From the IMG/VR virus record IMGVR_UViG_3300046804_001959: a stretch of 36,150 bases of DNA; one strand, written 5' to 3'. Positions within the stretch are counted from its first letter, which is position 1; each line of letters opens with the position of its first letter. The notes under the pieces were generated by a model. That model did not search any database, was not told the origin of the DNA, and saw nothing but the letters and a program-made list of their open reading frames with translations. Both the position numbers and the translations under genes were made by a program. Source of the DNA: a virus (Duplodnaviria; Heunggongvirae; Uroviricota; Caudoviricetes). This document shows positions 2,853-19,280 of the stretch, piece by piece.

Positions 2853-3303
2853 CTGGAATCAGTTCGCCGCCTGGTCCAATAGATGCAATCTCTGTCTCAG
2901 TGAAGTCATAATTTTCGATGTCTGCAGTTGGAATATCATCTGCGAGGTTGCCCACTGTTCCAGTATCTGCAAAGTTTTGATAGTCTTCGTTGGTGCCTAC
3001 CGCGTCGAGTGCTGGTCCTGGAGTACGGACGATCGTAAACAAGATCATCTTACCTGTCGACTTGTTAGTCTCGAGATACGAAACCATCTTTTCTCCCGCA
3101 TATGTGAAGTGATCCATGATGATGTCGTTATCTTCGTATCTGGTTACTTTTCCGTCAGTAAGAGTAGTTGTTCCTGGTTCAGGAGGTTGAGTAGGAGGGT
3201 TTCCAGGAGGACTTAAATCCCCATAAGAAGTGTCAGGAAATCCAGGAGCGTTGATGTCGGTAAAGAAGAAACCGTTCTCGCTGATCATGTAATCGTCTGT
3301 CAT
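2848..3303 (-). CDS. Hypothetical acidic, Pro/Thr-rich protein (probable virion component)
   Basis: Start moved to ATG 3303, which overlaps the upstream stop (ATGA). Lies within the baseplate operon; no family recognised. Confidence 0.7.
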   Translation of the reverse strand: MTDDYMISENGFFFTDINAPGFPDTSYGDLSPPGNPPTQPPEPGTTTLTDGKVTRYEDNDIIMDHFTYAGEKMVSYLETNKSTGKMILFTIVRTPGPALDAVGTNEDYQNFADTGTVGNLADDIPTADIENYDFTETEIASIGPGGELIPA

Positions 3304-4625
3304 ACCGGTCTTGCCCATTCTGGTGTCACTGAAGGATCTGGATTCGGTTCTAATCCGTACTTCGTTCTCTTGATCTCAATGCAATCTGGAAGAAATTTCA
3401 AGATCTGCTCAGGAATATCGAAGATCGGTTTCAAGATGATACTGATTACGAAGCAGACTGGAACCTTGCCACGGATGATGTTGATGATCAACTCAATAGT
3501 TCTGATGATCTTACCGATGATAGGGAACTGCTTCAGCAACCAACCTGGTGCCTTTAGAAGGATGTCATAGATCTTACCGATGAACTCACCTTGAAAGAAT
3601 CGCTTGATCTTTTCCATGGCATCTTCGAAGGCGTCTTCGATACGATGCCACAATCCTACTTTCGAGTGTACAGTTTCCTTCTTCTTTCTCTCTTTCTCTA
3701 CGAACCCAATGAGTTTTCCGAGAGTTCCGAACAGCGGGATCGGCAGATTCAATACAAAGTCTATCAGTTCTTGAAGTATTTTTTCTCCAAGATCCTTGAG
3801 TGCTTTGCCTGATAAGACGTCTTCTTTCGCTTTCTTGATCTTGGCTTTTAACTCTTCATACATCTTCTTGAGCTGTTCTTTGATCGGCTTTGTAGGATCG
3901 ATGAACAAACCTAACTTCTTGATCAACGGACCAATGATTGGGATCTTCGTAAGAAGTTTGATCATGGCATTGATACACTTTCCGATAAAGTCGCTCAGCA
4001 TCTCCTTCATCCATCTCATAGCCTTTTGCCAAAACTCTTCAGCTTCATGCTCTGGACTCTTGATGCCAAGAGTACCATCATACTTGTCACCTCCGAAGAA
4101 CTTCTTGATCGATTCGATATCCTCTGCAATAGCTGCTTTGATCTTGACTTTACCATCTTTCGTAAAGAAGTCTCTGATCACTGGCTGATAACGAACAGGG
4201 TTTCCGTTTGCATCGGTCAGTGTAACTGCAGTAATGAAAGGAATCGGCATCGCTAGGATGTCAGGAATTCCTAGGATCTTGATGATCTTCAGCAGAGCTT
4301 CTACGATCTTCTTCTGAAACCATACGTCGATTTCCTTGAAGAACTCACGAACTTTGTACTTCAGTTCCTCTTCTTTTGACTTGATCTTCTTCATGACATC
4401 TGTCATCAGAATGCCAGTGATATCGTCGATCAGCTTCTCAATTTTCTTGATAGCTTCGATGAGCTCTTTGGCACACTCGTCTTGAATGAACTTAGCTTGA
4501 AGCTTGAGCTGAGATACGATCTTCGAGATTCCTACAAAGTAATCTTCCATCTGACGGAAAGATATCTTTCCATCCGAACTGCAAAGTAAGTTAGGAACTT
4601 CAGGGATATAGACTACTGCTCTCAT
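3300..4625 (-). CDS. Hypothetical 441-aa amphipathic-helical protein downstream of gp5
   Basis: Long ORF with ATGA coupling at both ends. Lys/Ile-rich, with recurring P-I/L-I/F-G segments (IPIIGPLIK, IPLFGTLGK, FPIIGKII). Confidence 0.8.
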   Translation of the reverse strand: MRAVVYIPEVPNLLCSSDGKISFRQMEDYFVGISKIVSQLKLQAKFIQDECAKELIEAIKKIEKLIDDITGILMTDVMKKIKSKEEELKYKVREFFKEIDVWFQKKIVEALLKIIKILGIPDILAMPIPFITAVTLTDANGNPVRYQPVIRDFFTKDGKVKIKAAIAEDIESIKKFFGGDKYDGTLGIKSPEHEAEEFWQKAMRWMKEMLSDFIGKCINAMIKLLTKIPIIGPLIKKLGLFIDPTKPIKEQLKKMYEELKAKIKKAKEDVLSGKALKDLGEKILQELIDFVLNLPIPLFGTLGKLIGFVEKERKKKETVHSKVGLWHRIEDAFEDAMEKIKRFFQGEFIGKIYDILLKAPGWLLKQFPIIGKIIRTIELIINIIRGKVPVCFVISIILKPIFDIPEQILKFLPDCIEIKRTKYGLEPNPDPSVTPEWARPV

Positions 4626-9355: not shown

Positions 9356-9954
9356 TGGCAACGGTATTCGATACCATCATCACACAAGGTGTCCGCGCAG
9401 GTCAGATCCCTGCGCGTACTAATCAGGCGCGTGAATGGTTCCGTGAGACTGCTGGTAAGATGAACCGTGTCAACGAGCGTGAGATGATGCGAGGCGAAGT
9501 GAGTCGTATGACCACACAGCCTCTGCTCGGTTCGATGTACATGTTCTACTACGATCCGAAGTACAAGGAAGAGTTACCGTACTACGATAGATTTCCCCTC
9601 ATTTTCCCATACAAGAAGGTGAAAGGCGGGTTCATGGGACTCAACCTTCACTACCTTCCTCTACAGTTTCGAGCTAAACTGATGGATGGTCTATACGACT
9701 ATGCCAACAACACTCGCTACGACGAGTCGACCAAACTCAAGTTGAACTATGAACTTCTTACTCGTGCATCGAAGCTAAGATGGTTTCAACCTTGTATCAA
9801 ACATTACTTGACTCAACACGTACAATCGAAGTTCATGTACGTGTATCCTTCAGAATGGGACATCGCGCTGTTCCTTCCTACAGAACGCTTTGTCAAAGCA
9901 AAGAAGAACCAAGTCTGGATGGACAGCAAGAGAATGCTAGGAGTTAGTAAGTAA
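9355..9954 (+). CDS. gp2: DNA end protector protein gp2
   Basis: MYMFYYDPKYKEELPYYDRFPLI..GLNLHYLP..PCIKHYL..EWDIALFLPTERF. Confidence 0.95.
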   Translation: MATVFDTIITQGVRAGQIPARTNQAREWFRETAGKMNRVNEREMMRGEVSRMTTQPLLGSMYMFYYDPKYKEELPYYDRFPLIFPYKKVKGGFMGLNLHYLPLQFRAKLMDGLYDYANNTRYDESTKLKLNYELLTRASKLRWFQPCIKHYLTQHVQSKFMYVYPSEWDIALFLPTERFVKAKKNQVWMDSKRMLGVSK

Positions 9955-11000
9955 TGGCTACAACGTTTGAGGAACAGTTCGATGCCGAGTTTGGTACAGA
10001 TAAAAAGCGAGAGTTACAGTTTAGTTCCAACGGTGTTGCGAAGCCTGTAAACTCTGAGATCGACACAAAGAACTTCTCTGCAACAAGAAATCGTAGAAAA
10101 AGTTTTGACATCTCTACTTTCAGAGCAGAAGTTACAGAAATAGACGGTGTTCTTCCTACTCATAGCTTCTTAGTAAGGTTCGCTCCGATGGATTGGGTGA
10201 AGCCTTTCCCATCAGCAGATCGAAATAGTATCGATGAGATGCTGACGATGAGATGCGACAACGTTATTCTTCCGTCCATCAACCTTTTACAAGAACAGAA
10301 CATTCGTAGATACGGTTTCGGACCAGTAGAAAACGTTGCTTATGGTGTTAACGTCGGCGACTTTAGCTTGCAGTTTATCGTTGACAGAAATGCATGGGTA
10401 GTGGATTTCTTCGAAGCGTGGCTAAACAAGATCGTGAACCGTGACTCATACGGCGGAGCTAACATGAATGCCGATGTCGGCGGCGGAAGAACGCCTTACG
10501 AGGTCGCGTATAAAGATTCATACGCATGTTCTTCTGTAAACGTGTTCATCTACGATCGGGCGCAGAACACTGTCATGGAATACAATATCTACGATGTGTT
10601 CCCTACTGGCATTCAGAGCATGAACATGTCATGGTCAGAAGAGAACGCTATGATGAGACTCAACATCACGTTCTCGTTCACAGACCTTCGTATTCGACCG
10701 AAAGCGAGTTTATTTGGGCAGTCTGCTGCAGAAGCTCCGAGCGCACCGGTTTCCGATGTTATCACGAAGATGATGGAAGCCGGAGATAGACCTCTGGTTG
10801 ATCCATCGTTGGTAGTTTCTCTTGATCAACAGACAGCTACCGATCTTTCGAACTTACCTGTCGTGATCGGTGATGGGCCGAATGGAGCGCTTCGTACATT
10901 TGGAACTCCAGAAGATACTGCTCCTTTAGGAACAAGCAGTCCAGAAGTAACACCGCCTACATCACGTGATCCGTTCGGACAACCACAAATACTAGCATAA
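9954..11000 (+). CDS. Baseplate-tail tube initiator (gp54/gp19-like fold)
   Basis: Tail-tube-type core (FFEAWLNKIV..YKDSY..YDVFPTGIQSMNMSWS..LNITFSF); sits between gp2 and gp26. Confidence 0.75.
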   Translation: MATTFEEQFDAEFGTDKKRELQFSSNGVAKPVNSEIDTKNFSATRNRRKSFDISTFRAEVTEIDGVLPTHSFLVRFAPMDWVKPFPSADRNSIDEMLTMRCDNVILPSINLLQEQNIRRYGFGPVENVAYGVNVGDFSLQFIVDRNAWVVDFFEAWLNKIVNRDSYGGANMNADVGGGRTPYEVAYKDSYACSSVNVFIYDRAQNTVMEYNIYDVFPTGIQSMNMSWSEENAMMRLNITFSFTDLRIRPKASLFGQSAAEAPSAPVSDVITKMMEAGDRPLVDPSLVVSLDQQTATDLSNLPVVIGDGPNGALRTFGTPEDTAPLGTSSPEVTPPTSRDPFGQPQILA

Positions 11001-11023: not shown

Positions 11024-11734
11024 ATGCCTTTGCCAAAAATTGATCAACCTCTTTTTGACGTGATCGTTCCTTCTACAGGAAAGAAGATTCTGTTCAGACC
11101 GTTCTTGGTCAAAGAAGAGAAGCTTCTGTTGATCTCTCAACAGGGCGGTGAAGATACTGAAGTGATCAGAGCTATCAAGCAGATCCTGCGTCTGTGTGTC
11201 CAAGACGAAGGTTTCGATGTCGATCGTCTTACTACTTTTGATCTCGAGTACTTGTTCTTGAAGCTGCGTGCGAAGTCTGTCAACAACGTTGTCAAGCTTT
11301 CGTATCGCGATAACGAAGACAACAAGGTTTATAACTTTGATCTAGATCTTGATACGATCGAAGTAGAGATGCCAGAAGGTGTAGACTCGAATATCGAGTT
11401 GAACGATACTATCTCGATGGTGATGAAGTACCCAAGTGCTAGCATCACAGATAAGATCAAGCAGTTCGATAACGAAGTCGATCTTATGACGTTCTTCATC
11501 GTCAACTGCATTGATACGATTCTAACGCCAGATGAGATTTTCCCTGCATCAGATTACTCTGATAAAGAACTCGAAGAGTTTCTCGATCAACTGCCGATCA
11601 CCGCTTTCGAAAAGATTCGTGCGTTCTTTGAAAAGATGCCGAAGCTATATCATAAGATCGAGTACAAGAACGAGCTTGGAAACGACAGGAGTATCGAGTT
11701 AAATAATCTCAAAGATTTTTTTATGTGGCGCTGA
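11024..11734 (+). CDS. gp26: Baseplate hub subunit / assembly chaperone gp26
   Basis: MPLPKI..PSTGKKILFRPFLVKEEKLLL..FDLEYLFLKLRAKSV..FFEKMPKL..DFF; SD CAGGAG upstream. Confidence 0.93.
   Translation: MPLPKIDQPLFDVIVPSTGKKILFRPFLVKEEKLLLISQQGGEDTEVIRAIKQILRLCVQDEGFDVDRLTTFDLEYLFLKLRAKSVNNVVKLSYRDNEDNKVYNFDLDLDTIEVEMPEGVDSNIELNDTISMVMKYPSASITDKIKQFDNEVDLMTFFIVNCIDTILTPDEIFPASDYSDKELEEFLDQLPITAFEKIRAFFEKMPKLYHKIEYKNELGNDRSIELNNLKDFFMWR
11716..11722 (+). other. Candidate -1 ribosomal frameshift heptamer T TTT TTT
   Basis: GAT TTT TTT ATG near the end of gp26; the -1 frame is the open gp51 frame. Confidence 0.65.
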
Positions 11735-11907
11735 GCCACACATCTTTGCCAAACTACTATAGTATGATCTTTGCTTTGGCTCAGCATCACAAATACTCGA
11801 TTACAGAGATCGAAGCTTTGATACCTTATGAGAGAGATCTATACGTCGACATGTTGATGAATCATCTTGAAGAACAGAAACGAGAGATAGAGAGTAGAAG
11901 AAAGTAA
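11725..11907 (+). CDS. gp51: Baseplate hub assembly catalyst gp51 (possibly made as a gp26-gp51 frameshift fusion)
   Basis: LSHTSLPNYYSMIFALAQHHKYSITEIEALIPYERDLYVDML is the gp51 signature. GTG start has no obvious SD. Confidence 0.88.
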   Translation: MALSHTSLPNYYSMIFALAQHHKYSITEIEALIPYERDLYVDMLMNHLEEQKREIESRRK

Positions 11908-14090
11908 TGGCAGGAAAAGGTGGAGGCCGCGCAGCGGCTGCACGGATCGGAGCGGAAGTAATCGGAGAAACCATTGAAGGTATCTTCGGTTTGGCGTCGG
12001 CTACTGTCTCCGCTGCCGGTGAAGCCGCAAAAGGAATCGGTACCGCGGTAGGTGGTGCTCTCGAAGGTGCACTCAGCCCTGCTCCAGTGACTGTCGTGAA
12101 CAATGTAGGAATGGCAGGAGAAGCTGCTAAGGCAAAGGTTACTGGCGGCGGATCTATTCCTACTGCTCCGAAGAAAGCTGCAAAGCCTGTAGCCAACGTC
12201 AAGATGCCTACTGAGAAGCTTCTTGTTATTGCTGTCAACTACCTATCATCGATCGAAAAGACTCTCGAATCTCAACTCAACTTTGAAAGAACTGCTGCTG
12301 CTCAACAAGCTCAAGCAGAAAGAGAAGCTGCTATCGAGGATACGGCATCTCCTACATCTTCTTTTAAAAGTTTAGGAGAAAAGCTTGGAGGTCTGAAAGA
12401 AGACGCGACTGATAGAGCCAGTGCTCTAACTAAAGCCGTTCTTGGAACAGGAGCACTTGCCGGGTTTACATTACTTGGTCTCGGAGAGATGGACAAGTCT
12501 GAGCTAGAAAATCTGAAGAAGAACTGGACTGAGTTCACTGACCAATGGAAATGGGTAACAGATATTCTTGAACCAGTGTTAGAACACTCTGGTTGGGGAA
12601 CCTTTATAGGTTATATGATCGCCGGGCCGAGAGGCGCTGTAGCAGGTTGGTTTGGTGATTTTATCAAAGATATTACTAATAGTGATCTTGCAGCATGGAC
12701 AACGAGTGCAACGGTGGCCACTGGTTTAGGATTATTTGGTAAAACTGCAAGAACTCTATTGTTTAGAACACCCGGAGGTCTAGCTGCATTAGGCACCGCC
12801 GCTACTTTGGCTGGTACTGAAGCGGCTTTTACTTCTACGCAATCATCTGAACAAAAGAAGTTTGCAGATTTCTTTATGAAATATGGTCTGTATGTACAAG
12901 AATGGAGTGAAAACAGTCTTGTAGCAAAGAAATACCGTATTAGTATCCCAGAAAGAAAGATTAATATTGTTAATATTACTCAAGCTCAGCTTAGAGGAAG
13001 TGATAGACCGGCAGACAAGTATTACTATTGGTATATGGTTCTTGAAGCCAGTTGGATGAGAGGTGGAAGTGCAGTAAGAGCTCAGCAGTGGCTCGATTCT
13101 CCCGCTGCTCAAGAGTGGCTAAACAAGTATTTCCCTATTTCAACCGATGCTACGGTTGTACCTCCTGCAAATGATAATGCATCTGAAATTTCAGATGCAA
13201 GCCCTGCAGCATCTTCTTCAGCAACACCCGACGCCGAGGCTCTTCCACCTGCTGCAACTGGTTCGATCGACGCTATTCTTGACAAGAATCCAGAGCAACT
13301 TTCTGATGCAGAACTAAGACAGCTCGTAGAAGCACAAGGTCGCATCGAAGATCCGAACGGAAGAACGAACAATCCGGGTGGTATTCTTTACGGAACTGGA
13401 CCTCTACAAGAACATCAGATTGGATCGGTAGGTGCTAACGCTGATAGTTCAGTGAAGATCGCAGTATATGATACTCCAGAAAACGGTATTCGTGCTGCGA
13501 TGGAAAACTGGAGAAACTCTCGCTACTATCGAGGTAAATCTGTAAGAGAAGGCCTTGGAACTTGGTCTGGAGGAAACGGCGCTCACTATGCACAGATGCT
13601 AGGATCTGTCCGTCCAGGGTATGAAGGCACTTCTAATCCACAAGCCGAATCTGGTGGCAGTGGACTAGCATCTGGCCTGTGGGAAATGACTAAGGGTGCT
13701 ATCGAAGCGGTATCTAATATTATGTCTGCAGCTGCAGGAAAGTACACTCCTACTAAAGGTTCTCAGCTCACATCGTTCAACACTGATATGAAATCGAGTA
13801 GCTCTGTTTCTCCATCTTCTTCGCCTTCAGCTTCATCTGCTGCTGCGCCAATGACTCCACCGCCCGATCCAAAAGTTTCTCAGCTAAACAGCATTTCGAC
13901 TCAGATTCAAACTGCGGTCGATCTTGGAAACGCAAAAGATTCTCAGACGAACATGATGACAAATGTACCATCTGGACAAGCATCTCTTCGTAGTGCATCT
14001 CCAGATGGTAAGCTCGAAGCGATCGATCCTAACTATCCTGGAACAGGTGGCATCGAAGCCTACCTTCAGTACTATAGATTGGCTGCGTAA
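11907..14090 (+). CDS. Tape-measure/gp29-like virion protein A with a lysozyme-like domain
   Basis: Follows gp51. Ala/Gly-rich N-terminus, coiled coil, hydrophobic helices, then RTNNPGGI...YDTPENGIRAA...W..G...Y, a phage lysozyme-like motif set. Confidence 0.7.
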   Translation: MAGKGGGRAAAARIGAEVIGETIEGIFGLASATVSAAGEAAKGIGTAVGGALEGALSPAPVTVVNNVGMAGEAAKAKVTGGGSIPTAPKKAAKPVANVKMPTEKLLVIAVNYLSSIEKTLESQLNFERTAAAQQAQAEREAAIEDTASPTSSFKSLGEKLGGLKEDATDRASALTKAVLGTGALAGFTLLGLGEMDKSELENLKKNWTEFTDQWKWVTDILEPVLEHSGWGTFIGYMIAGPRGAVAGWFGDFIKDITNSDLAAWTTSATVATGLGLFGKTARTLLFRTPGGLAALGTAATLAGTEAAFTSTQSSEQKKFADFFMKYGLYVQEWSENSLVAKKYRISIPERKINIVNITQAQLRGSDRPADKYYYWYMVLEASWMRGGSAVRAQQWLDSPAAQEWLNKYFPISTDATVVPPANDNASEISDASPAASSSATPDAEALPPAATGSIDAILDKNPEQLSDAELRQLVEAQGRIEDPNGRTNNPGGILYGTGPLQEHQIGSVGANADSSVKIAVYDTPENGIRAAMENWRNSRYYRGKSVREGLGTWSGGNGAHYAQMLGSVRPGYEGTSNPQAESGGSGLASGLWEMTKGAIEAVSNIMSAAAGKYTPTKGSQLTSFNTDMKSSSSVSPSSSPSASSAAAPMTPPPDPKVSQLNSISTQIQTAVDLGNAKDSQTNMMTNVPSGQASLRSASPDGKLEAIDPNYPGTGGIEAYLQYYRLAA
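13680..13790 (+). repeat. Copy 1 of a 111-nt coding repeat shared by the two tape-measure-like genes
   Basis: Encodes WEMTKGAIEAVSNIMSAAAGKYTPTKGSQLTSFNTDM; aligns without gaps to 15890-16000. Confidence 0.9.
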
Positions 14091-16237
14091 TGGCTGAACC
14101 TATCACGATCGGCGGTCAAACATTTATCAAAACAGAAGACGGCTGGATAGACAAGAAAACGAAGGTCAGAGCTCCTGAAGGGTTGACTACTCTTCTGGAA
14201 AAGATGAACGTCGACAACACACCTCAAGAAAAGAAGAAGCGTGTTCGTATCGACACGAGTAGACCGATCGTCAAGCTCGGAAAGAGCGAGTACGTTTGGG
14301 ACCTGAACGGAAAGACATGGATCGATAAGAAGACTAAAGATCCAGTCAACCCAAACTTTAGTAAGCTGATCGAAGCCACGTATCAGAGCATCGAAGAAGG
14401 TGTAACACCCGATGATCAGCTTTATAAGAAGCAAATCTCGGATGCTGCATCTAAAAGCATGGGTACTGCAGGCCAAGCAGCCAAGCAGAAGGTGAAGAAG
14501 CCGACTGGTAAAGGGCAGTTCGCTGTTCCGAACGTGAAGATCAACTCTCCTATCGTGAAGATGATCGAGAAACTGGCTACGATCGATACTTACTTAAAGC
14601 AGCGTCTTGAAAATCAGAAGATGACTGCTGCTAAAAATATCGTTGCAGCAAAAGAACAACAGATCGAGTCTACTGCCGCCATCGATGCGCAGCCAGTTAT
14701 CGATGAAGAAAAGATAGATGCTGAAGTAGAAGCTGAGAACAAAAAAGCTAACGCGGCGATGATTGCTTTTGGAATCGGTGCTGCAGGTTTGATAGCTTCG
14801 CAGTTCGATCCCGTCAAAGAAGCGTTTACCGGAGTAGTAGACTTTGCGAAAGGTGTATACGGTTATCTCAAAGATTTCATAAGCATCACAAACAGTGGGC
14901 TCGAGACTATCAATTCAATGGGAAGATCAATTGGATTAGGAGAAAAAACTTCTACTCCTACATCTGGATCTCCGGCATCGAGCAACTCTGGAAATGACTC
15001 TGCATCTATGCAGAGTCCTGTAGCGACTCAAGTTTCTAACCCACAAGATTCTGCTAATCCCGTTCAGAGTTCTGCACCTGTTGCAACAAGCAACGGAGAT
15101 GAGATCGTAGTCACTGCACCGAGAAGATCAACTTCATCATCATCTTCGTCTTCGACCTCATCAGATGAGATAGTAGTTACAGCTCCGCGCAGATCATCTT
15201 CAAGATCTTCTTCATCGAGTTCTTCATCTTCAGGATCTTCTGATGCATCTCGTCAATCGGCACCTCCCCCTACAAGCGCTGCTCCAGTACAAACAAATTC
15301 AGAACTATCTGAAGCTCAGAACGGTACTGTGTGGGCTGGAACAGATGCATCTGGTATGAAGACATTTGTTCGTAAGATTAACAATAAGTTCGAAACGTGG
15401 ACCTCGACAGACGGCACTCACTATGATATCGATGAAAGCCAAGCGCAAGCACAAATATCTTCTCGCGGGCTGCGTAATGTAAACACTGGATCAGATCAGC
15501 GTCAAGCAACTGGCCAGCAAACAATACCGCAAAATAATATTGTAGAATTAGGAAGATACCTGCAAAGTCAAGGCCTTCGTATTTCTGGGCACTCACAGTT
15601 TGGAGGCCAAGAACGAGGAAGTCATAGTGCCAACTCTAGACACTATCGCGATATGGCTATCGATGTCAACGTCGGAACAGGATTAAGGGAAGCAGATGAT
15701 CCTACAGCCGGTGCACGCTTCGATAAGTTAGCTACAGATCTTCGAGCAGCCGGATACAGTGTTATCTGGAGAGCAAAAGATCACTACGATCACTTACACG
15801 TTTCAGTAGGAGGCCCTGAAAGCGCAGGAAGCAGCGGCGAAGGTGCTGACAGCGATAGCAGTCTGATCAGCAATATAGCAAAAGGCGGTTGGGAAATGAC
15901 CAAAGGCGCCATCGAAGCGGTATCTAACATCATTCGAGCTGGTGCAGGAGAATACAAAACTACTACCGGATCTCAGCTCACTTCGTTCGATACTGAGATG
16001 GTAGGAAAAATCAATGCAGCTGCTCGAGAAAAGAATGCAGCCATGGCAGATGCAAAGACAACAGAAGATGTGAAGAAGGTATCCGATCCTCTTAACCTAA
16101 ATGCTAAGAGCGGATCTCCGGTAGTCCAAAACTTGGCATCGTCTGCTGATATCGATCAGGTTCAAAAGTATCTTACTCGTATGGGATTCCCAAAGATCGA
16201 GTATCACATACAGACTCCAAAGATGAACGTGGCATAA
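14090..16237 (+). CDS. Tape-measure-like virion protein B with an M15/LAS-type Zn peptidase domain and two TonB-box-like motifs
   Basis: HYRDMAID (H-x6-D) and HYDHLHVS (H-x-H) Zn motifs; DEIVVTAPRRS twice in a Ser-rich linker; WIDKKTK twice at the N-terminus. Confidence 0.7.
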   Translation: MAEPITIGGQTFIKTEDGWIDKKTKVRAPEGLTTLLEKMNVDNTPQEKKKRVRIDTSRPIVKLGKSEYVWDLNGKTWIDKKTKDPVNPNFSKLIEATYQSIEEGVTPDDQLYKKQISDAASKSMGTAGQAAKQKVKKPTGKGQFAVPNVKINSPIVKMIEKLATIDTYLKQRLENQKMTAAKNIVAAKEQQIESTAAIDAQPVIDEEKIDAEVEAENKKANAAMIAFGIGAAGLIASQFDPVKEAFTGVVDFAKGVYGYLKDFISITNSGLETINSMGRSIGLGEKTSTPTSGSPASSNSGNDSASMQSPVATQVSNPQDSANPVQSSAPVATSNGDEIVVTAPRRSTSSSSSSSTSSDEIVVTAPRRSSSRSSSSSSSSSGSSDASRQSAPPPTSAAPVQTNSELSEAQNGTVWAGTDASGMKTFVRKINNKFETWTSTDGTHYDIDESQAQAQISSRGLRNVNTGSDQRQATGQQTIPQNNIVELGRYLQSQGLRISGHSQFGGQERGSHSANSRHYRDMAIDVNVGTGLREADDPTAGARFDKLATDLRAAGYSVIWRAKDHYDHLHVSVGGPESAGSSGEGADSDSSLISNIAKGGWEMTKGAIEAVSNIIRAGAGEYKTTTGSQLTSFDTEMVGKINAAAREKNAAMADAKTTEDVKKVSDPLNLNAKSGSPVVQNLASSADIDQVQKYLTRMGFPKIEYHIQTPKMNVA
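15098..15196 (+). repeat. Tandem DEIVVTAPRRS peptide repeat (TonB-box-like)
   Basis: Identical 11-aa peptides at residues 337 and 359, with synonymous codon differences. Confidence 0.9.
15890..16000 (+). repeat. Copy 2 of the 111-nt coding repeat
   Basis: Encodes WEMTKGAIEAVSNIIRAGAGEYKTTTGSQLTSFDTEM. Confidence 0.9.
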
Positions 16238-18939: not shown

Positions 18940-19245
18940 AAGTTGCCGGATTCTGTTTCGAGGCTCCGGCGGGCCCAATGCTAGCCTCAAGCGGCTAGAG
19001 CAAAGGCAACGTCATTATCGTTTGCATTTACGTTTAGTGGCAACTTTGCCAAGCAATCAGTCTCGAACCGCCTTATTCTGCGTGCATCGATTCCCAGTAA
19101 CACCCCCATCAACTACCTTGAGTTATCGTCTTTCACAACCCGTACGTAGAGGATACTCGTCTTTCCCCTCAAGGTAGATGGTGGAGGTGGGGGGATTCGA
19201 ACCCCCGTCTACTCCGCTTTTATTGTTGATTGTCATCAACTGATA
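18940..19245 (-). ncRNA. ssrA: Circularly permuted (two-piece) tmRNA
   Basis: The acceptor piece ends GGGGG-TTCGAAT-CCCCC-CACCTCC-A-CCA (3' end 19179). After a 71-nt intervening segment, the coding piece starts GGGGGTG at 19107, forming a 7-bp acceptor stem with G3:U70. Tag ORF 19025-18987 reads ANDNDVAFALAA*. Outer ends are approximate. Confidence 0.95.
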
Positions 19246-19250
19246 TTCTA

Positions 19251-19280
19251 TATATACCCCAACGCGATTTAATTGTACAC
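19251..19280 (-). promoter_or_regulatory. Early-type promoter for tmRNA
   Basis: GTGTACA-N17-TATATA. Confidence 0.7.

What the first reader, a model, noticed from the sequence alone, without database searches (positions are those of the whole stretch)
15098..15196. Two TonB-box motifs in a putative injected tail protein: possible TonB-energised entry step
Seen: DEIVVTAPRRS occurs twice (residues 337 and 359) in an otherwise low-complexity Ser-rich linker of the 715-aa tape-measure-like protein, between a hydrophobic helix and a Zn peptidase domain. The copies are identical as protein but differ at synonymous sites (GAG ATC GTA GTC ACT GCA CCG AGA versus GAG ATA GTA GTT ACA GCT CCG CGC), which suggests selection on the peptide. 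Known: (D/E)EIVVTA-x-(R/K)R is the typical N-terminal TonB box of alphaproteobacterial TonB-dependent transporters, and group B colicins carry their own TonB box in a disordered region for import. Inference: once ejected into the periplasm, this protein binds host TonB to be pulled, anchored or guided to the inner membrane, or it acts as a decoy that jams TonB. I know of no description of a phage ejection protein with its own TonB box.
Basis: partly seen in the sequence, partly recalled or inferred. Interest (0 to 1): 0.9.

Follow-up and report, generated by a model that had tools for sequence, protein, structure and literature searches.

The report
TonB-box look-alikes on phage tail proteins
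A T4-like phage of an alphaproteobacterium carries, in a floppy linker of a wall-degrading protein in its tape-measure gene slot, two conserved copies of the short tag that host outer-membrane transporters use to dock onto the TonB energy motor; the phage may use that motor during entry, but binding has not been shown.

Summary
DEIVVTAPRRS occurs twice (aa 337-347 and 359-369) in a 715-aa ORF. The copies differ at 6 of 33 bases, all synonymous.

The ORF lies in the tape-measure (gp29) slot of a T4-like baseplate module. It has a conserved N-terminus, a roughly 120-aa Ser-rich disordered linker and a swappable cell-wall hydrolase domain (here a LAS-type Zn peptidase).

A scoring matrix built from 30 TonB boxes of alphaproteobacterial transporters gives the motif 25.9 bits, inside the real-box range. 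Nothing else in the window exceeds 7.5 bits.

Eleven of the 12 closest homologues keep at least one copy in an otherwise unalignable linker.

The same motif recurs on other phage proteins that act in the envelope:
- disordered N- or C-terminal extensions of gp54-like tube proteins, including sister phages of this one;
- the N-terminus of a post-gp5 protein;
- a large protein beside a giant virion structural protein;
- the N-terminal extension of GH19 endolysins.

Caveats: TonB binding is untested, the host is unknown, some relatives lack the motif, and Clostridia-phage tape measures carry the same heptad. I found no paper describing this. Earlier notes of this scan flagged similar motifs on other DNA (a sphingomonad prophage tape measure and a crAss-like ejected protein).

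The parts
14090..16237 (+). 715-aa tape-measure-slot protein 'TMP-B': conserved N-terminal ~270 aa, disordered linker, small beta-rich domain, LAS-type Zn peptidase, conserved C-terminus
   Evidence: synteny with the Caulobacter phage Cr30 tape measure gene
15098..15130 (+). TonB-box-like motif, copy 1 (DEIVVTAPRRS, aa 337-347)
   Evidence: 25.9 bits on the TonB-box matrix
15164..15196 (+). TonB-box-like motif, copy 2 (DEIVVTAPRRS, aa 359-369); 6 synonymous differences from copy 1
14930..15298 (+). Ser/Thr/Pro-rich linker (aa 281-403), predicted disordered and hypervariable among homologues apart from short conserved islands (the motif and a DATRxSAPPPTS island)
14750..14806 (+). Hydrophobic helix (aa ~221-239, NAAMIAFGIGAAGLIASQF), conserved in the family
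15299..15469 (+). Small beta-rich domain (aa 404-460), pLDDT about 90, conserved in the motif-bearing clade
15521..15814 (+). LAS-type Zn peptidase domain (H-x6-D in SRHYRDMAID; H-x-H in DHLHV)
   Evidence: PHROG 13339, E 6.8e-11; tblastn to peptidase parts of siphophage tape measures; Foldseek best match VldE C-terminal domain, then hedgehog N domains, a Zn DD-peptidase and LdcB; all matches weak (best E 3.6e-3, prob 1.0)
15857..16000 (+). C-terminal block shared with the upstream paralogue (55% identity over 73 aa)
11907..14090 (+). 727-aa paralogue 'TMP-A' with a lysozyme/transglycosylase-like segment; no TonB-box-like site
9954..11000 (+). gp54-like tube protein (Pfam Phage_TTP_2). This window's copy lacks the motif. 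In six sister phages its disordered C-terminal tail starts with a related strand: four score 19.3-29.8 bits and two score 14.8 bits.
11024..11734 (+). gp26-like baseplate hub protein, which marks the start of the gp26-gp51-tape-measure arrangement
18941..19276 (-). Alphaproteobacteria-type permuted tmRNA gene (context: a pointer to the host class)
   Evidence: Rfam RF04321 at 90.8 bits and RF01849 at 56.5 bits

Best explanation
The two DEIVVTAPRR segments are functional short linear motifs that mimic the TonB box of the host's TonB-dependent transporters.

Proposed mechanism. The 715-aa protein is packed in the tail core in the tape-measure position. It is expelled into the periplasm when the T4-like tail contracts and the tube breaches the outer membrane. 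Its roughly 120-residue disordered linker then exposes the motifs. Each motif pairs as a beta-strand with the C-terminal domain of TonB, as transporter and group B colicin TonB boxes do.

Most likely consequence. TonB is anchored in the inner membrane and spans the periplasm through the cell wall. Binding would therefore tether the tail-core protein and its wall-cutting domain to TonB. Binding might also transmit ExbBD/proton-motive pulling that draws the protein out of the tube or brings the tube tip and inner membrane together.

Shown: the motif, its duplication, purifying selection, the disordered context, identity with the alphaproteobacterial TonB-box consensus, and recurrence on other envelope-acting phage proteins.

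Inferred: virion location and ejection, a host with TonB, binding, and the consequence of binding.
For: 1. Sequence. Thirty TonB boxes taken upstream of Plug domains in three alphaproteobacterial genomes give the consensus D-E-I-V-V-T-A/G-x-R-R, and nine of them contain the exact heptad DEIVVTA. The phage sites score 25.9 bits against a range of 19.4-31.6 for the real boxes, and the next best site in the window scores 7.5 bits.

2. Bacterial context. Of 14 exact [DE]EIVVTAPR matches in about 185,000 bacterial and archaeal species genomes, 5 are transporter N-termini confirmed by Pfam or by near-identity to a confirmed one (plus a candidate without a Pfam hit) and 4 are TonB_C-domain proteins. 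Three are Burkholderia-type proteins in which the motif lies inside the fold, which I read as chance, and one is a Sphingobacterium DUF5686 protein.

3. Selection. All six differences between the two copies are synonymous. Eleven of the 12 closest homologues keep at least one intact copy in one of two 'slots' of an otherwise unalignable linker, whether they carry an M15 or an M23 hydrolase domain.

4. Accessibility. The linker has pLDDT of about 30 and no secondary structure.

5. Place and host class. The gene order gp26-gp51-tape measure, followed by a convergent gp32, is the same as in Caulobacter phage Cr30. The window carries an alpha-type tmRNA, and Cr30 is the closest isolate by gp6, at 38%.

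6. Portability.
- In gp54-like tube proteins, 7 of 150 representatives (each standing for a cluster at 50% identity) score at least 19 bits, against a shuffle expectation of 0. The motif sits in N-terminal extensions in some and in C-terminal tails in others.
- In one sister phage that tail is predicted disordered.
- Six of 7 genomes of this phage genus have a site of at least 19 bits on a central tail protein.
- The motif also occurs at the N-terminus of a post-gp5 protein, in a large protein next to a giant virion protein, and in GH19 endolysins that sit between holin and spanin genes.
- Endolysins are not tail parts, so a partner shared by all these proteins is more likely to be in the host envelope.

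7. Specificity control. Two permuted versions of the DNA pattern each hit 1 stretch in IMG/VR, against at least 100 stretches for the real motif.
Against: - No binding data exist, and the host is unknown, so a host TonB is not verified.
- One close homologue (P0011) has no copy. Sister clades of the same genus, whose gp32, gp59, gp26 and gp2 are 85-94% identical to the window's, lack it in this protein or carry a different island, EEI[TL]T[PA]FPGP, with prolines where a pairing strand should be. One genome (L169) has only a 14.8-bit site.
- About 85 tape measures of Clostridia siphophages end in ...IDEIVVTAQQR.... Their hosts are Gram-positive and have no TonB, so the heptad alone is not diagnostic and can be an ordinary tail-protein strand.
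- Pro at position 8 was not seen in the 30 transporter boxes, although that position is variable.
- There is no evident reason why a cytoplasmically made endolysin should engage TonB.
- TonB_C proteins of Terricaulis carry DEIVVTAPRRP just upstream of their own C-terminal domain, which shows the peptide also has other contexts.
Confidence: 0.5

Rival explanations
1. The motif is a structural or assembly strand of the tail core. It pairs with a phage partner (hub, tube, assembly chaperone or another tape-measure copy) while the tail is built. Its likeness to TonB boxes reflects only the general chemistry of strand addition.
For: - Most carriers are central tail parts: the tape-measure-slot protein, the gp54-like tube protein and the post-gp5 protein.
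- Tape measures of Gram-positive phages carry IDEIVVTAxQR in a conserved C-terminal hairpin-like segment.
- The tube-protein tail has a second strand-like conserved piece (...ETTIIGDF...) that could pair with the motif.
Against: - The same motif sits in GH19 endolysins within holin-endolysin-spanin cassettes, and these are not tail parts.
- Its position is not fixed: N-terminus, C-terminus or an internal linker, in one or two copies.
- It lies in regions predicted disordered in two different proteins.
- The flanks (acidic before, Arg/Lys after) and the VTA/VTG variants follow the variation seen in transporter boxes.
Confidence: 0.2
2. The motif is a functional linear motif for another host envelope factor: a periplasmic protease that releases or activates the hydrolase domain, a chaperone, or a wall-associated protein that positions muralytic enzymes. 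TonB is not the partner.
For: - In two unrelated families the motif lies just upstream of a linker and a cell-wall hydrolase domain.
- Host periplasmic and inner-membrane factors are already known to serve tape measures: HK97 needs FkpA and PtsG, as summarised in PMC5099701.
Against: No other periplasmic protein is known to recognise this exact 10-mer. Proteases and chaperones of that compartment have loose specificity, which does not explain near-invariance of ten residues that match the TonB-box consensus.
Confidence: 0.15
3. The motif has no function of its own. It is a remnant of host sequence captured from a transporter or TonB-like gene, or a by-product of repeat expansion in a low-complexity linker.
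For: - The linker is repeat-prone and hypervariable.
- A Terricaulis TonB-like protein holds the identical 11-mer next to a Pro/Ala-rich linker.
- Some relatives have lost one or both copies.
Against: - Only synonymous differences separate the copies.
- The motif is invariant across homologues that are 44-75% identical overall, while its flanks cannot be aligned.
- It recurs independently in several other protein families.
Confidence: 0.08

Closest known systems
TonB box of TonB-dependent outer-membrane transporters (alphaproteobacterial form, DEIVVTA-x-RR)
   Same: The ten-residue consensus is the same, including an acidic pair before and Arg-Arg after. It sits in a flexible segment and scores within the range of 30 real boxes.
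   Different: It is not at the N-terminus of a plug and barrel protein. It lies inside, and occurs twice in, the linker of a phage tail-core protein. Pro follows TA. Binding is untested.
Group B colicins, S-type pyocins and pesticin (bacteriocins with their own TonB box in a disordered translocation region; pesticin pairs one with a lysozyme-like domain) - my knowledge, PMC3390615, PMC11658791
   Same: A TonB box lies in an intrinsically disordered region of a protein that enters the periplasm from outside. In pesticin, as here, a wall-degrading domain lies downstream.
   Different: Bacteriocins thread through a transporter after receptor binding. Here delivery would be by a contractile tail, and there is no receptor-binding or translocation domain.
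Tape measure proteins with muralytic domains or host-factor dependence (T5 pb2, mycobacteriophage TM4 tape measure, HK97 tape measure with PtsG/FkpA) - PMC1796659, PMC5099701, my knowledge
   Same: A tail-core protein carries a cell-wall hydrolase module, and host envelope proteins assist genome delivery.
   Different: None of these has been reported to carry a TonB box. This protein has no detectable sequence similarity to T4-type or Cr30 tape measures and comes as a tandem paralogous pair.
Filamentous phage g3p binding the TolA C-terminal domain (my knowledge)
   Same: A phage virion protein engages the periplasmic domain of an inner-membrane energy-transducing protein that is structurally related to TonB.
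   Different: The g3p contact uses a folded domain rather than a linear motif, and it involves the Tol system rather than the Ton system.
TonB-dependent phages T1 and phi80 (PMC11658791)
   Same: Infection depends on TonB and the proton-motive force.
   Different: In those phages TonB is understood to act on the receptor FhuA. No TonB box on a phage protein has been described.

Membership tests
TonB box (TonB-binding linear motif) | Sequence matches the consensus of the host class's transporter TonB boxes | tested here: met
   25.9 bits on a matrix of 30 alphaproteobacterial boxes (range 19.4-31.6). The exact heptad DEIVVTA occurs in 9 of the 30.
TonB box (TonB-binding linear motif) | Lies in a flexible, accessible segment | tested here: met
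   AlphaFold2 gives aa 281-403 no secondary structure and pLDDT of about 30. The composition is Ser-rich. This is a prediction only.
TonB box (TonB-binding linear motif) | Binds the TonB C-terminal domain by strand addition | tested here: inconclusive
   The complex job with the Sphingomonas TonB C-terminal domain gave no verdict. This is evidence in neither direction.
TonB box (TonB-binding linear motif) | Exposed in the periplasm of a host that has TonB-ExbBD | not testable with these tools
   The host is unknown. The host class is inferred from the alpha-type tmRNA and the closest isolate, Cr30.
TonB box (TonB-binding linear motif) | Function lost on strand-breaking (Pro) substitutions or in tonB mutants | not testable with these tools
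   Needs experiments.
T4-type tape measure (gp29) | Gene position after gp26 and gp51 in the baseplate hub cluster | tested here: met
   Same order as in Caulobacter phage Cr30, where the gene is annotated as tape measure and is followed by a convergent gp32.
T4-type tape measure (gp29) | Sequence or profile similarity to known tape measures | tested here: not met
   hhalign probability 0.2% against the Cr30 tape measure. There is no Pfam family. PHROG and tblastn hits cover only the peptidase domain. I therefore call it a 'tape-measure-slot protein' and do not file it as gp29.
T4-type tape measure (gp29) | Present in the tail lumen and expelled at infection | not testable with these tools
   Needs virion mass spectrometry or cryo-EM.
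LAS-type Zn peptidase (M15 / hedgehog-like) | H-x6-D and H-x-H zinc ligand motifs on the LAS fold | tested here: met
   SRHYRDMAID and DHLHV are present. PHROG 13339 hits aa 478-588 with E 6.8e-11. Foldseek's best match is the VldE C-terminal domain (prob 1.0, E 3.6e-3), followed by hedgehog N domains, 1lbu and LdcB. The fold match is weak and Pfam is below threshold.
Group B colicin-type translocation domain | Receptor-binding domain plus threading through a TonB-dependent transporter | not tested
   No such domain is apparent. Delivery by tail contraction is assumed instead. The resemblance is in mode of action only.

The most novel reading that the evidence does not exclude
TonB-box mimics are a widespread, portable module that tailed phages of Gram-negative bacteria place on whichever protein first meets the periplasm: tape-measure-slot proteins, tube-initiator tails, spike-associated proteins, ejection proteins and even endolysins. 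Through it they couple to the host Ton motor. This would be an energised entry or positioning step analogous to group B colicin import, and it has not been described for phages.
Probability: 0.3. Interest if true: 0.9.

Novelty: new variant of a known kind. Interest (0 to 1): 0.75.

Why it matters
How contractile-tailed phages bridge the periplasm and engage the inner membrane after piercing the outer membrane is still poorly understood.

A TonB box on tail-core proteins would give a concrete, testable mechanism. The phage would hook onto an inner-membrane-anchored, proton-motive-force-driven protein that already spans the periplasm, as bacteriocins do.

It would also:
- explain why these tail-core proteins evolve so fast within an otherwise conserved phage genus;
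- predict tonB/exbBD-dependent host range and resistance routes;
- add phage proteins, including endolysins, to the small set of natural TonB-box carriers.

The motif is short and easy to mutate, and peptides are cheap to make, so the idea can be tested directly.

Tried and rejected
- **Complex prediction.** I paired the window linker aa 328-375 with the C-terminal domain of a Sphingomonas TonB taken from a tonB-exbB-exbD operon. The result was no verdict (score 0.26, mark 0.32), so I count it as evidence in neither direction.
- **Host identification failed.**
  - No genome is held for the window.
  - BLAST of the tmRNA against 401 alphaproteobacterial genomes matched only the conserved ~30-nt arm.
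- **Similarity to the Cr30 tape measure.** None was found.
- **Pfam on the 715-aa protein.** No family was found.
- **The sister-clade island EEI[TL]T[PA]FPGP as a mimic of a host motif.** There were no matches in the 401 alphaproteobacterial genomes searched. G243 and G043 were again among them.
- **Complementarity between proteins.** From five genomes I suspected that the motif sits either on the tube-like protein or on the tape-measure-slot protein, but not on both. Two further genomes carry it on both, so I rejected this.
- **A tube-tail hairpin.** I considered that the tube-tail motif forms a folded hairpin. The AlphaFold2 monomer model leaves that tail unstructured, but this does not exclude ordering in the assembled tail.
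- **Isolated phages.** No isolate has a close homologue of the 715-aa protein or of the large L044 protein. The isolates' gp54-like proteins are only 24-30% identical. Cr30's shows no motif; the other isolates were not checked for it.
Full report
**1. The observation**

ORF 14090-16237 (+) encodes 715 aa. DEIVVTAPRRS is at aa 337-347 (nt 15098-15130) and aa 359-369 (nt 15164-15196). The two DNA copies differ at 6 of 33 bases in 5 codons, and all differences are synonymous. About 26% of possible single changes in this stretch are synonymous, so the naive chance of six synonymous changes is about 3e-4. The flanks of the two copies differ, so this is not a fresh duplication. The motif lies in a stretch with 45 Ser in 150 residues.

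**2. What the gene is**

The window is a T4-like myovirus baseplate and tail segment. It holds these parts:
- gp6-like wedge, gp25-like, gp5-like (Gp5_OB) and gp27-like proteins;
- gp53-like, gp48-like, gp4-like and gp2-like proteins;
- a gp54-like tube protein (Phage_TTP_2) and a gp26-like hub protein;
- two large ORFs of 727 and 715 aa;
- gp32 and gp59 on the other strand.

By gp6, the closest isolated phage is Caulobacter phage Cr30 (38%), followed by Sinorhizobium T4-like phages. Cr30 has the same order: gp26-like, gp51, a small ORF, an annotated tape measure, then a convergent gp32. The two ORFs therefore occupy the tape-measure slot.

They have no detectable similarity to the Cr30 tape measure and no Pfam family. 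I therefore call the 715-aa protein a tape-measure-slot protein and do not file it as gp29.

The two ORFs are paralogues. They share a C-terminal block (55% over 73 aa) and an N-terminal coiled segment.

The AlphaFold2 model of the 715-aa protein shows the following:
- aa 1-280: a structured, helical N-terminal part;
- aa 281-403: no secondary structure, pLDDT about 30;
- aa 404-460: a small confident domain;
- aa ~478-575: a domain carrying H-x6-D and H-x-H.

The last domain matches LAS-family Zn peptidases, but weakly.

**3. The family**

A homologue search found 170 proteins, all from metagenomes. They share a conserved N-terminus, a hypervariable linker, a swappable wall hydrolase (M23, several M15 types, VanY, CHAP or amidase) and a conserved C-terminus.

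Syntenic relatives have gp32, gp59, gp26 and gp2 that are 85-94% identical to the window's. The two tape-measure-slot proteins are only 33-52% identical. They are fast-evolving parts of what appears to be one phage genus (GC 41-46%).

**4. Conservation of the motif**

Twelve of the 120 best homologues carry [DE][DE]IVVTA. These are the closest ones, whether they carry an M15 or an M23 domain.

In an alignment of the 12 closest, the linker holds two 'slots' for the motif:
- each protein has slot 1, slot 2 or both;
- decayed remnants are visible in the empty slots;
- 11 of 12 keep at least one intact copy, while the surrounding linker cannot be aligned;
- one close homologue (P0011) has none.

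Another clade has a different island, EEI[TL]T[PA]FPGP, at a similar place (23 of 120 proteins). The remaining 86 match neither pattern; one of them, P0028, carries a degenerate NDIVVTARR. That island matched nothing in the 401 alphaproteobacterial genomes searched.

**5. Is it a TonB box by sequence?**

I took 30 Plug-domain genes from three alphaproteobacterial genomes (a Terricaulis MAG, an uncultured alphaproteobacterium and Sphingomonas sp. IBVSS2) and read the box upstream of each.
- The consensus is D-E-I-V-V-T-A/G-x-R-R, and nine boxes contain the exact heptad DEIVVTA.
- On the matrix built from them, the phage sites score 25.9 bits, against a training range of 19.4-31.6.
- The next best site in all window ORFs scores 7.5 bits.

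An exact-pattern scan of about 185,000 species genomes for [DE]EIVVTAPR gave 14 hits:
- 5 transporter N-termini, confirmed by Pfam or by near-identity to a confirmed one, and 1 candidate without a Pfam hit;
- 4 TonB_C-domain proteins with the motif about 16 residues upstream of the domain;
- 3 Burkholderia-type proteins with the motif inside the fold, which I read as chance;
- 1 Sphingobacterium DUF5686 protein.

The host-class pointers fit this reading. Rfam finds an alpha-type permuted tmRNA at 18941-19276, and Cr30 is the nearest isolate.

**6. The motif elsewhere in phages**

A degenerate DNA pattern for [DE]EIVVTA-x-x-R hit at least 100 stretches in IMG/VR. Two permuted control patterns hit 1 stretch each.

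Most real hits are one family, and it argues for caution. About 85 tape measures of siphophages end in ...IPVYIGG-x-x-IDEIVVTA-x-QR...SGGR. Their isolated relatives infect Clostridia such as Coprococcus, Agathobacter and Ruminococcus. Those hosts have no TonB, so the heptad can also be an ordinary strand of a tail protein.

The other hits are more telling:
- **Transporter genes.** Real transporter genes on viral contigs.
- **L044/L090.** An 885-aa protein with PPPPELEEIVVTAQKR in mid-sequence, next to an 1831-aa virion structural protein.
- **L021/L074.** A T4-like module in which the protein after gp5 begins MATEEIVVTAASRGP.
- **L001.** A 271-aa GH19 lysin with an N-terminal helix, then DEIVVTAPRP, then a Pro/Ala linker.

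The GH19 family is large (1607 homologues). Of its best 120 members, 25 score at least 12 bits at aa 22-31, and many others carry degenerate versions. The L001 gene sits between a holin-like gene and overlapping spanin-like genes, so it is an endolysin. The closest isolate's homologue, in Erythrobacter phage R16L, lacks the motif and is also followed by spanins.

**7. A second carrier in this phage genus**

I scanned syntenic relatives with the matrix. The gp54-like tube protein has a variable C-terminal tail that starts with a motif-like strand:
- L173 and L174: KDEIIVTGRRR, 29.8 bits;
- L167: KDEIVVTARRN, 25.0 bits;
- L168: 19.3 bits;
- L165 and L169: 14.8 bits;
- the window's own copy lacks it.

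Six of 7 genomes of the genus have a site of at least 19 bits on a central tail protein. Only L173 reaches that level on both proteins; L174 carries 29.8 bits on the tube protein and a weaker 16.5-bit site on TMP-B, so there is no either/or rule.

AlphaFold2 on the L167 protein gives a confident tube fold (aa ~165-345) and an unstructured tail around the motif, with pLDDT 36-48.

I also ran a library-wide search with the L167 protein (1481 hits). Each of the best 150 proteins stands for a cluster at 50% identity. Of these, 7 score at least 19 bits and 15 score at least 12 bits, against shuffle expectations of 0 and 0.15.

In several representatives the motif is in an N-terminal extension a few residues before the first strand of the tube fold. 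Examples are MADPNEEIVVTANRR... and ...EQIDEIVVTANRI.... In others it is in the C-terminal tail. Many homologues have no extension at all. Both VTA-x-RR and VTG-S/T-R variants occur, as they do in transporter boxes.

A motif that turns up at either end, or inside a linker, of unrelated proteins and always in flexible segments behaves like a portable linear motif rather than part of a fold.

**8. Interpretation**

The facts fit a functional short linear motif exposed in the periplasm. Its sequence is the TonB box of the presumed host class, so TonB is the leading candidate partner. I give this 0.5.

Its presence on endolysins argues against a purely tail-internal partner. Its presence in Gram-positive phage tape measures, and its absence from some close relatives, argues against over-reading.

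The effect I consider most likely is tethering of the tail-core protein and its hydrolase to TonB, which is anchored in the inner membrane and spans the wall. Force transmission is a further possibility.

Titrating TonB as a decoy is unlikely for a protein present in a few copies per virion (inference).

**9. Literature and earlier notes**

Full-text searches found no natural phage tape measure, ejection protein or endolysin described with its own TonB box. The hits concern T5 and FhuA, engineered lysocins, pesticin and colicins. TonB-dependent phages T1 and phi80 are reviewed in PMC11658791. HK97's need for PtsG and FkpA is summarised in PMC5099701.

Earlier notes of this scan, which are unchecked AI notes, report TonB-box look-alikes in a sphingomonad prophage tape measure and in a crAss-like ejected protein on other DNA. 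I did not test those.

**10. Limits**

The limits are these:
- The complex job gave no verdict.
- The host is unknown.
- Virion location is inferred from synteny.
- Family counts include related sequences.
- The unpublished genomes G243 and G043 were part of the 401-genome samples. No claim depends on them.

Noticed in passing
L167:5449-6783, L173:1405-2886, L174:1749-2894 (window counterpart 9954-11000): The gp54-like tube protein of sister phages has a disordered C-terminal tail that begins with a canonical TonB-box-like strand (KDEIIVTGRRR or KDEIVVTARRN). In other T4-like lineages the same kind of motif sits in an N-terminal extension just before the tube fold. The window's own copy lacks it.
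   Followed up: yes
L001:2526-3341 (-), proteins P0121 and P0123-P0241: A large family of GH19 endolysins of alphaproteobacterial-type siphophages has an N-terminal helix, then (E)EIVVTAP(R/K)P, then a Pro/Ala linker. The L001 gene sits between holin-like and spanin-like genes. Why an endolysin would carry a TonB-box-like motif is unexplained.
   Followed up: partly
L110:2007-2744 (-), L114, L105, L106: TonB_C-domain proteins of Terricaulis and of an uncultured alphaproteobacterium carry DEIVVTAPRRP about 16 residues upstream of their own C-terminal domain. This may be a strand that binds the domain in cis. Other TonB paralogues in the same genomes have different strands at that place.
   Followed up: partly
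L008:6601-9426 (-) and about 85 similar IMG/VR loci: Tape measures of Clostridia siphophages end in a conserved ...IPVYIGG-x-x-IDEIVVTA-x-QR...SGGR. This is the same heptad in phages of hosts without TonB.
   Followed up: partly
L021:3191-4645 (-) and L074: In another T4-like phage the 484-aa protein encoded between gp5 and gp25 starts MATEEIVVTAASRGP. A helical region and Ig-like repeats follow. The window's protein in the same slot (3300-4625, -) has no such start.
   Followed up: partly
L044:54-2711 (+), L090: An 885-aa protein with no family assignment carries PPPPELEEIVVTAQKR in mid-sequence. It lies next to an 1831-aa virion structural protein and a DNA polymerase/primase/helicase block. 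No isolated phage has a relative.
   Followed up: partly
window 11907-16237 and relatives L165, L167-L169: The two tape-measure-slot paralogues are only 33-52% identical between phages whose gp32, gp59, gp26 and gp2 are 85-94% identical. The hydrolase domain is swapped among M15, M23, VanY, CHAP and amidase types.
   Followed up: partly
window 15220-15290 (aa ~378-400) and homologues: A second conserved island in the linker, D-A-[ST]-R-x-[ST]-A-[PS]-P-P-T-S, is shared more widely than the TonB-box-like motif. A sister clade has EEI[TL]T[PA]FPGP, which matched nothing in the 401 alphaproteobacterial genomes searched.
   Followed up: partly
window 18941-19276 (-): A phage-encoded permuted, Alphaproteobacteria-type tmRNA is confirmed by Rfam (RF04321 at 90.8 bits, RF01849 at 56.5 bits). 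ARAGORN did not call it.
   Followed up: partly
L104:1361-4069 (+), Sphingomonas sp. IBVSS2: A 902-aa protein with no Pfam or PHROG hit carries QDEIVVTAPRRGD about 100 residues from its start. Its nature is unknown.
   Followed up: no
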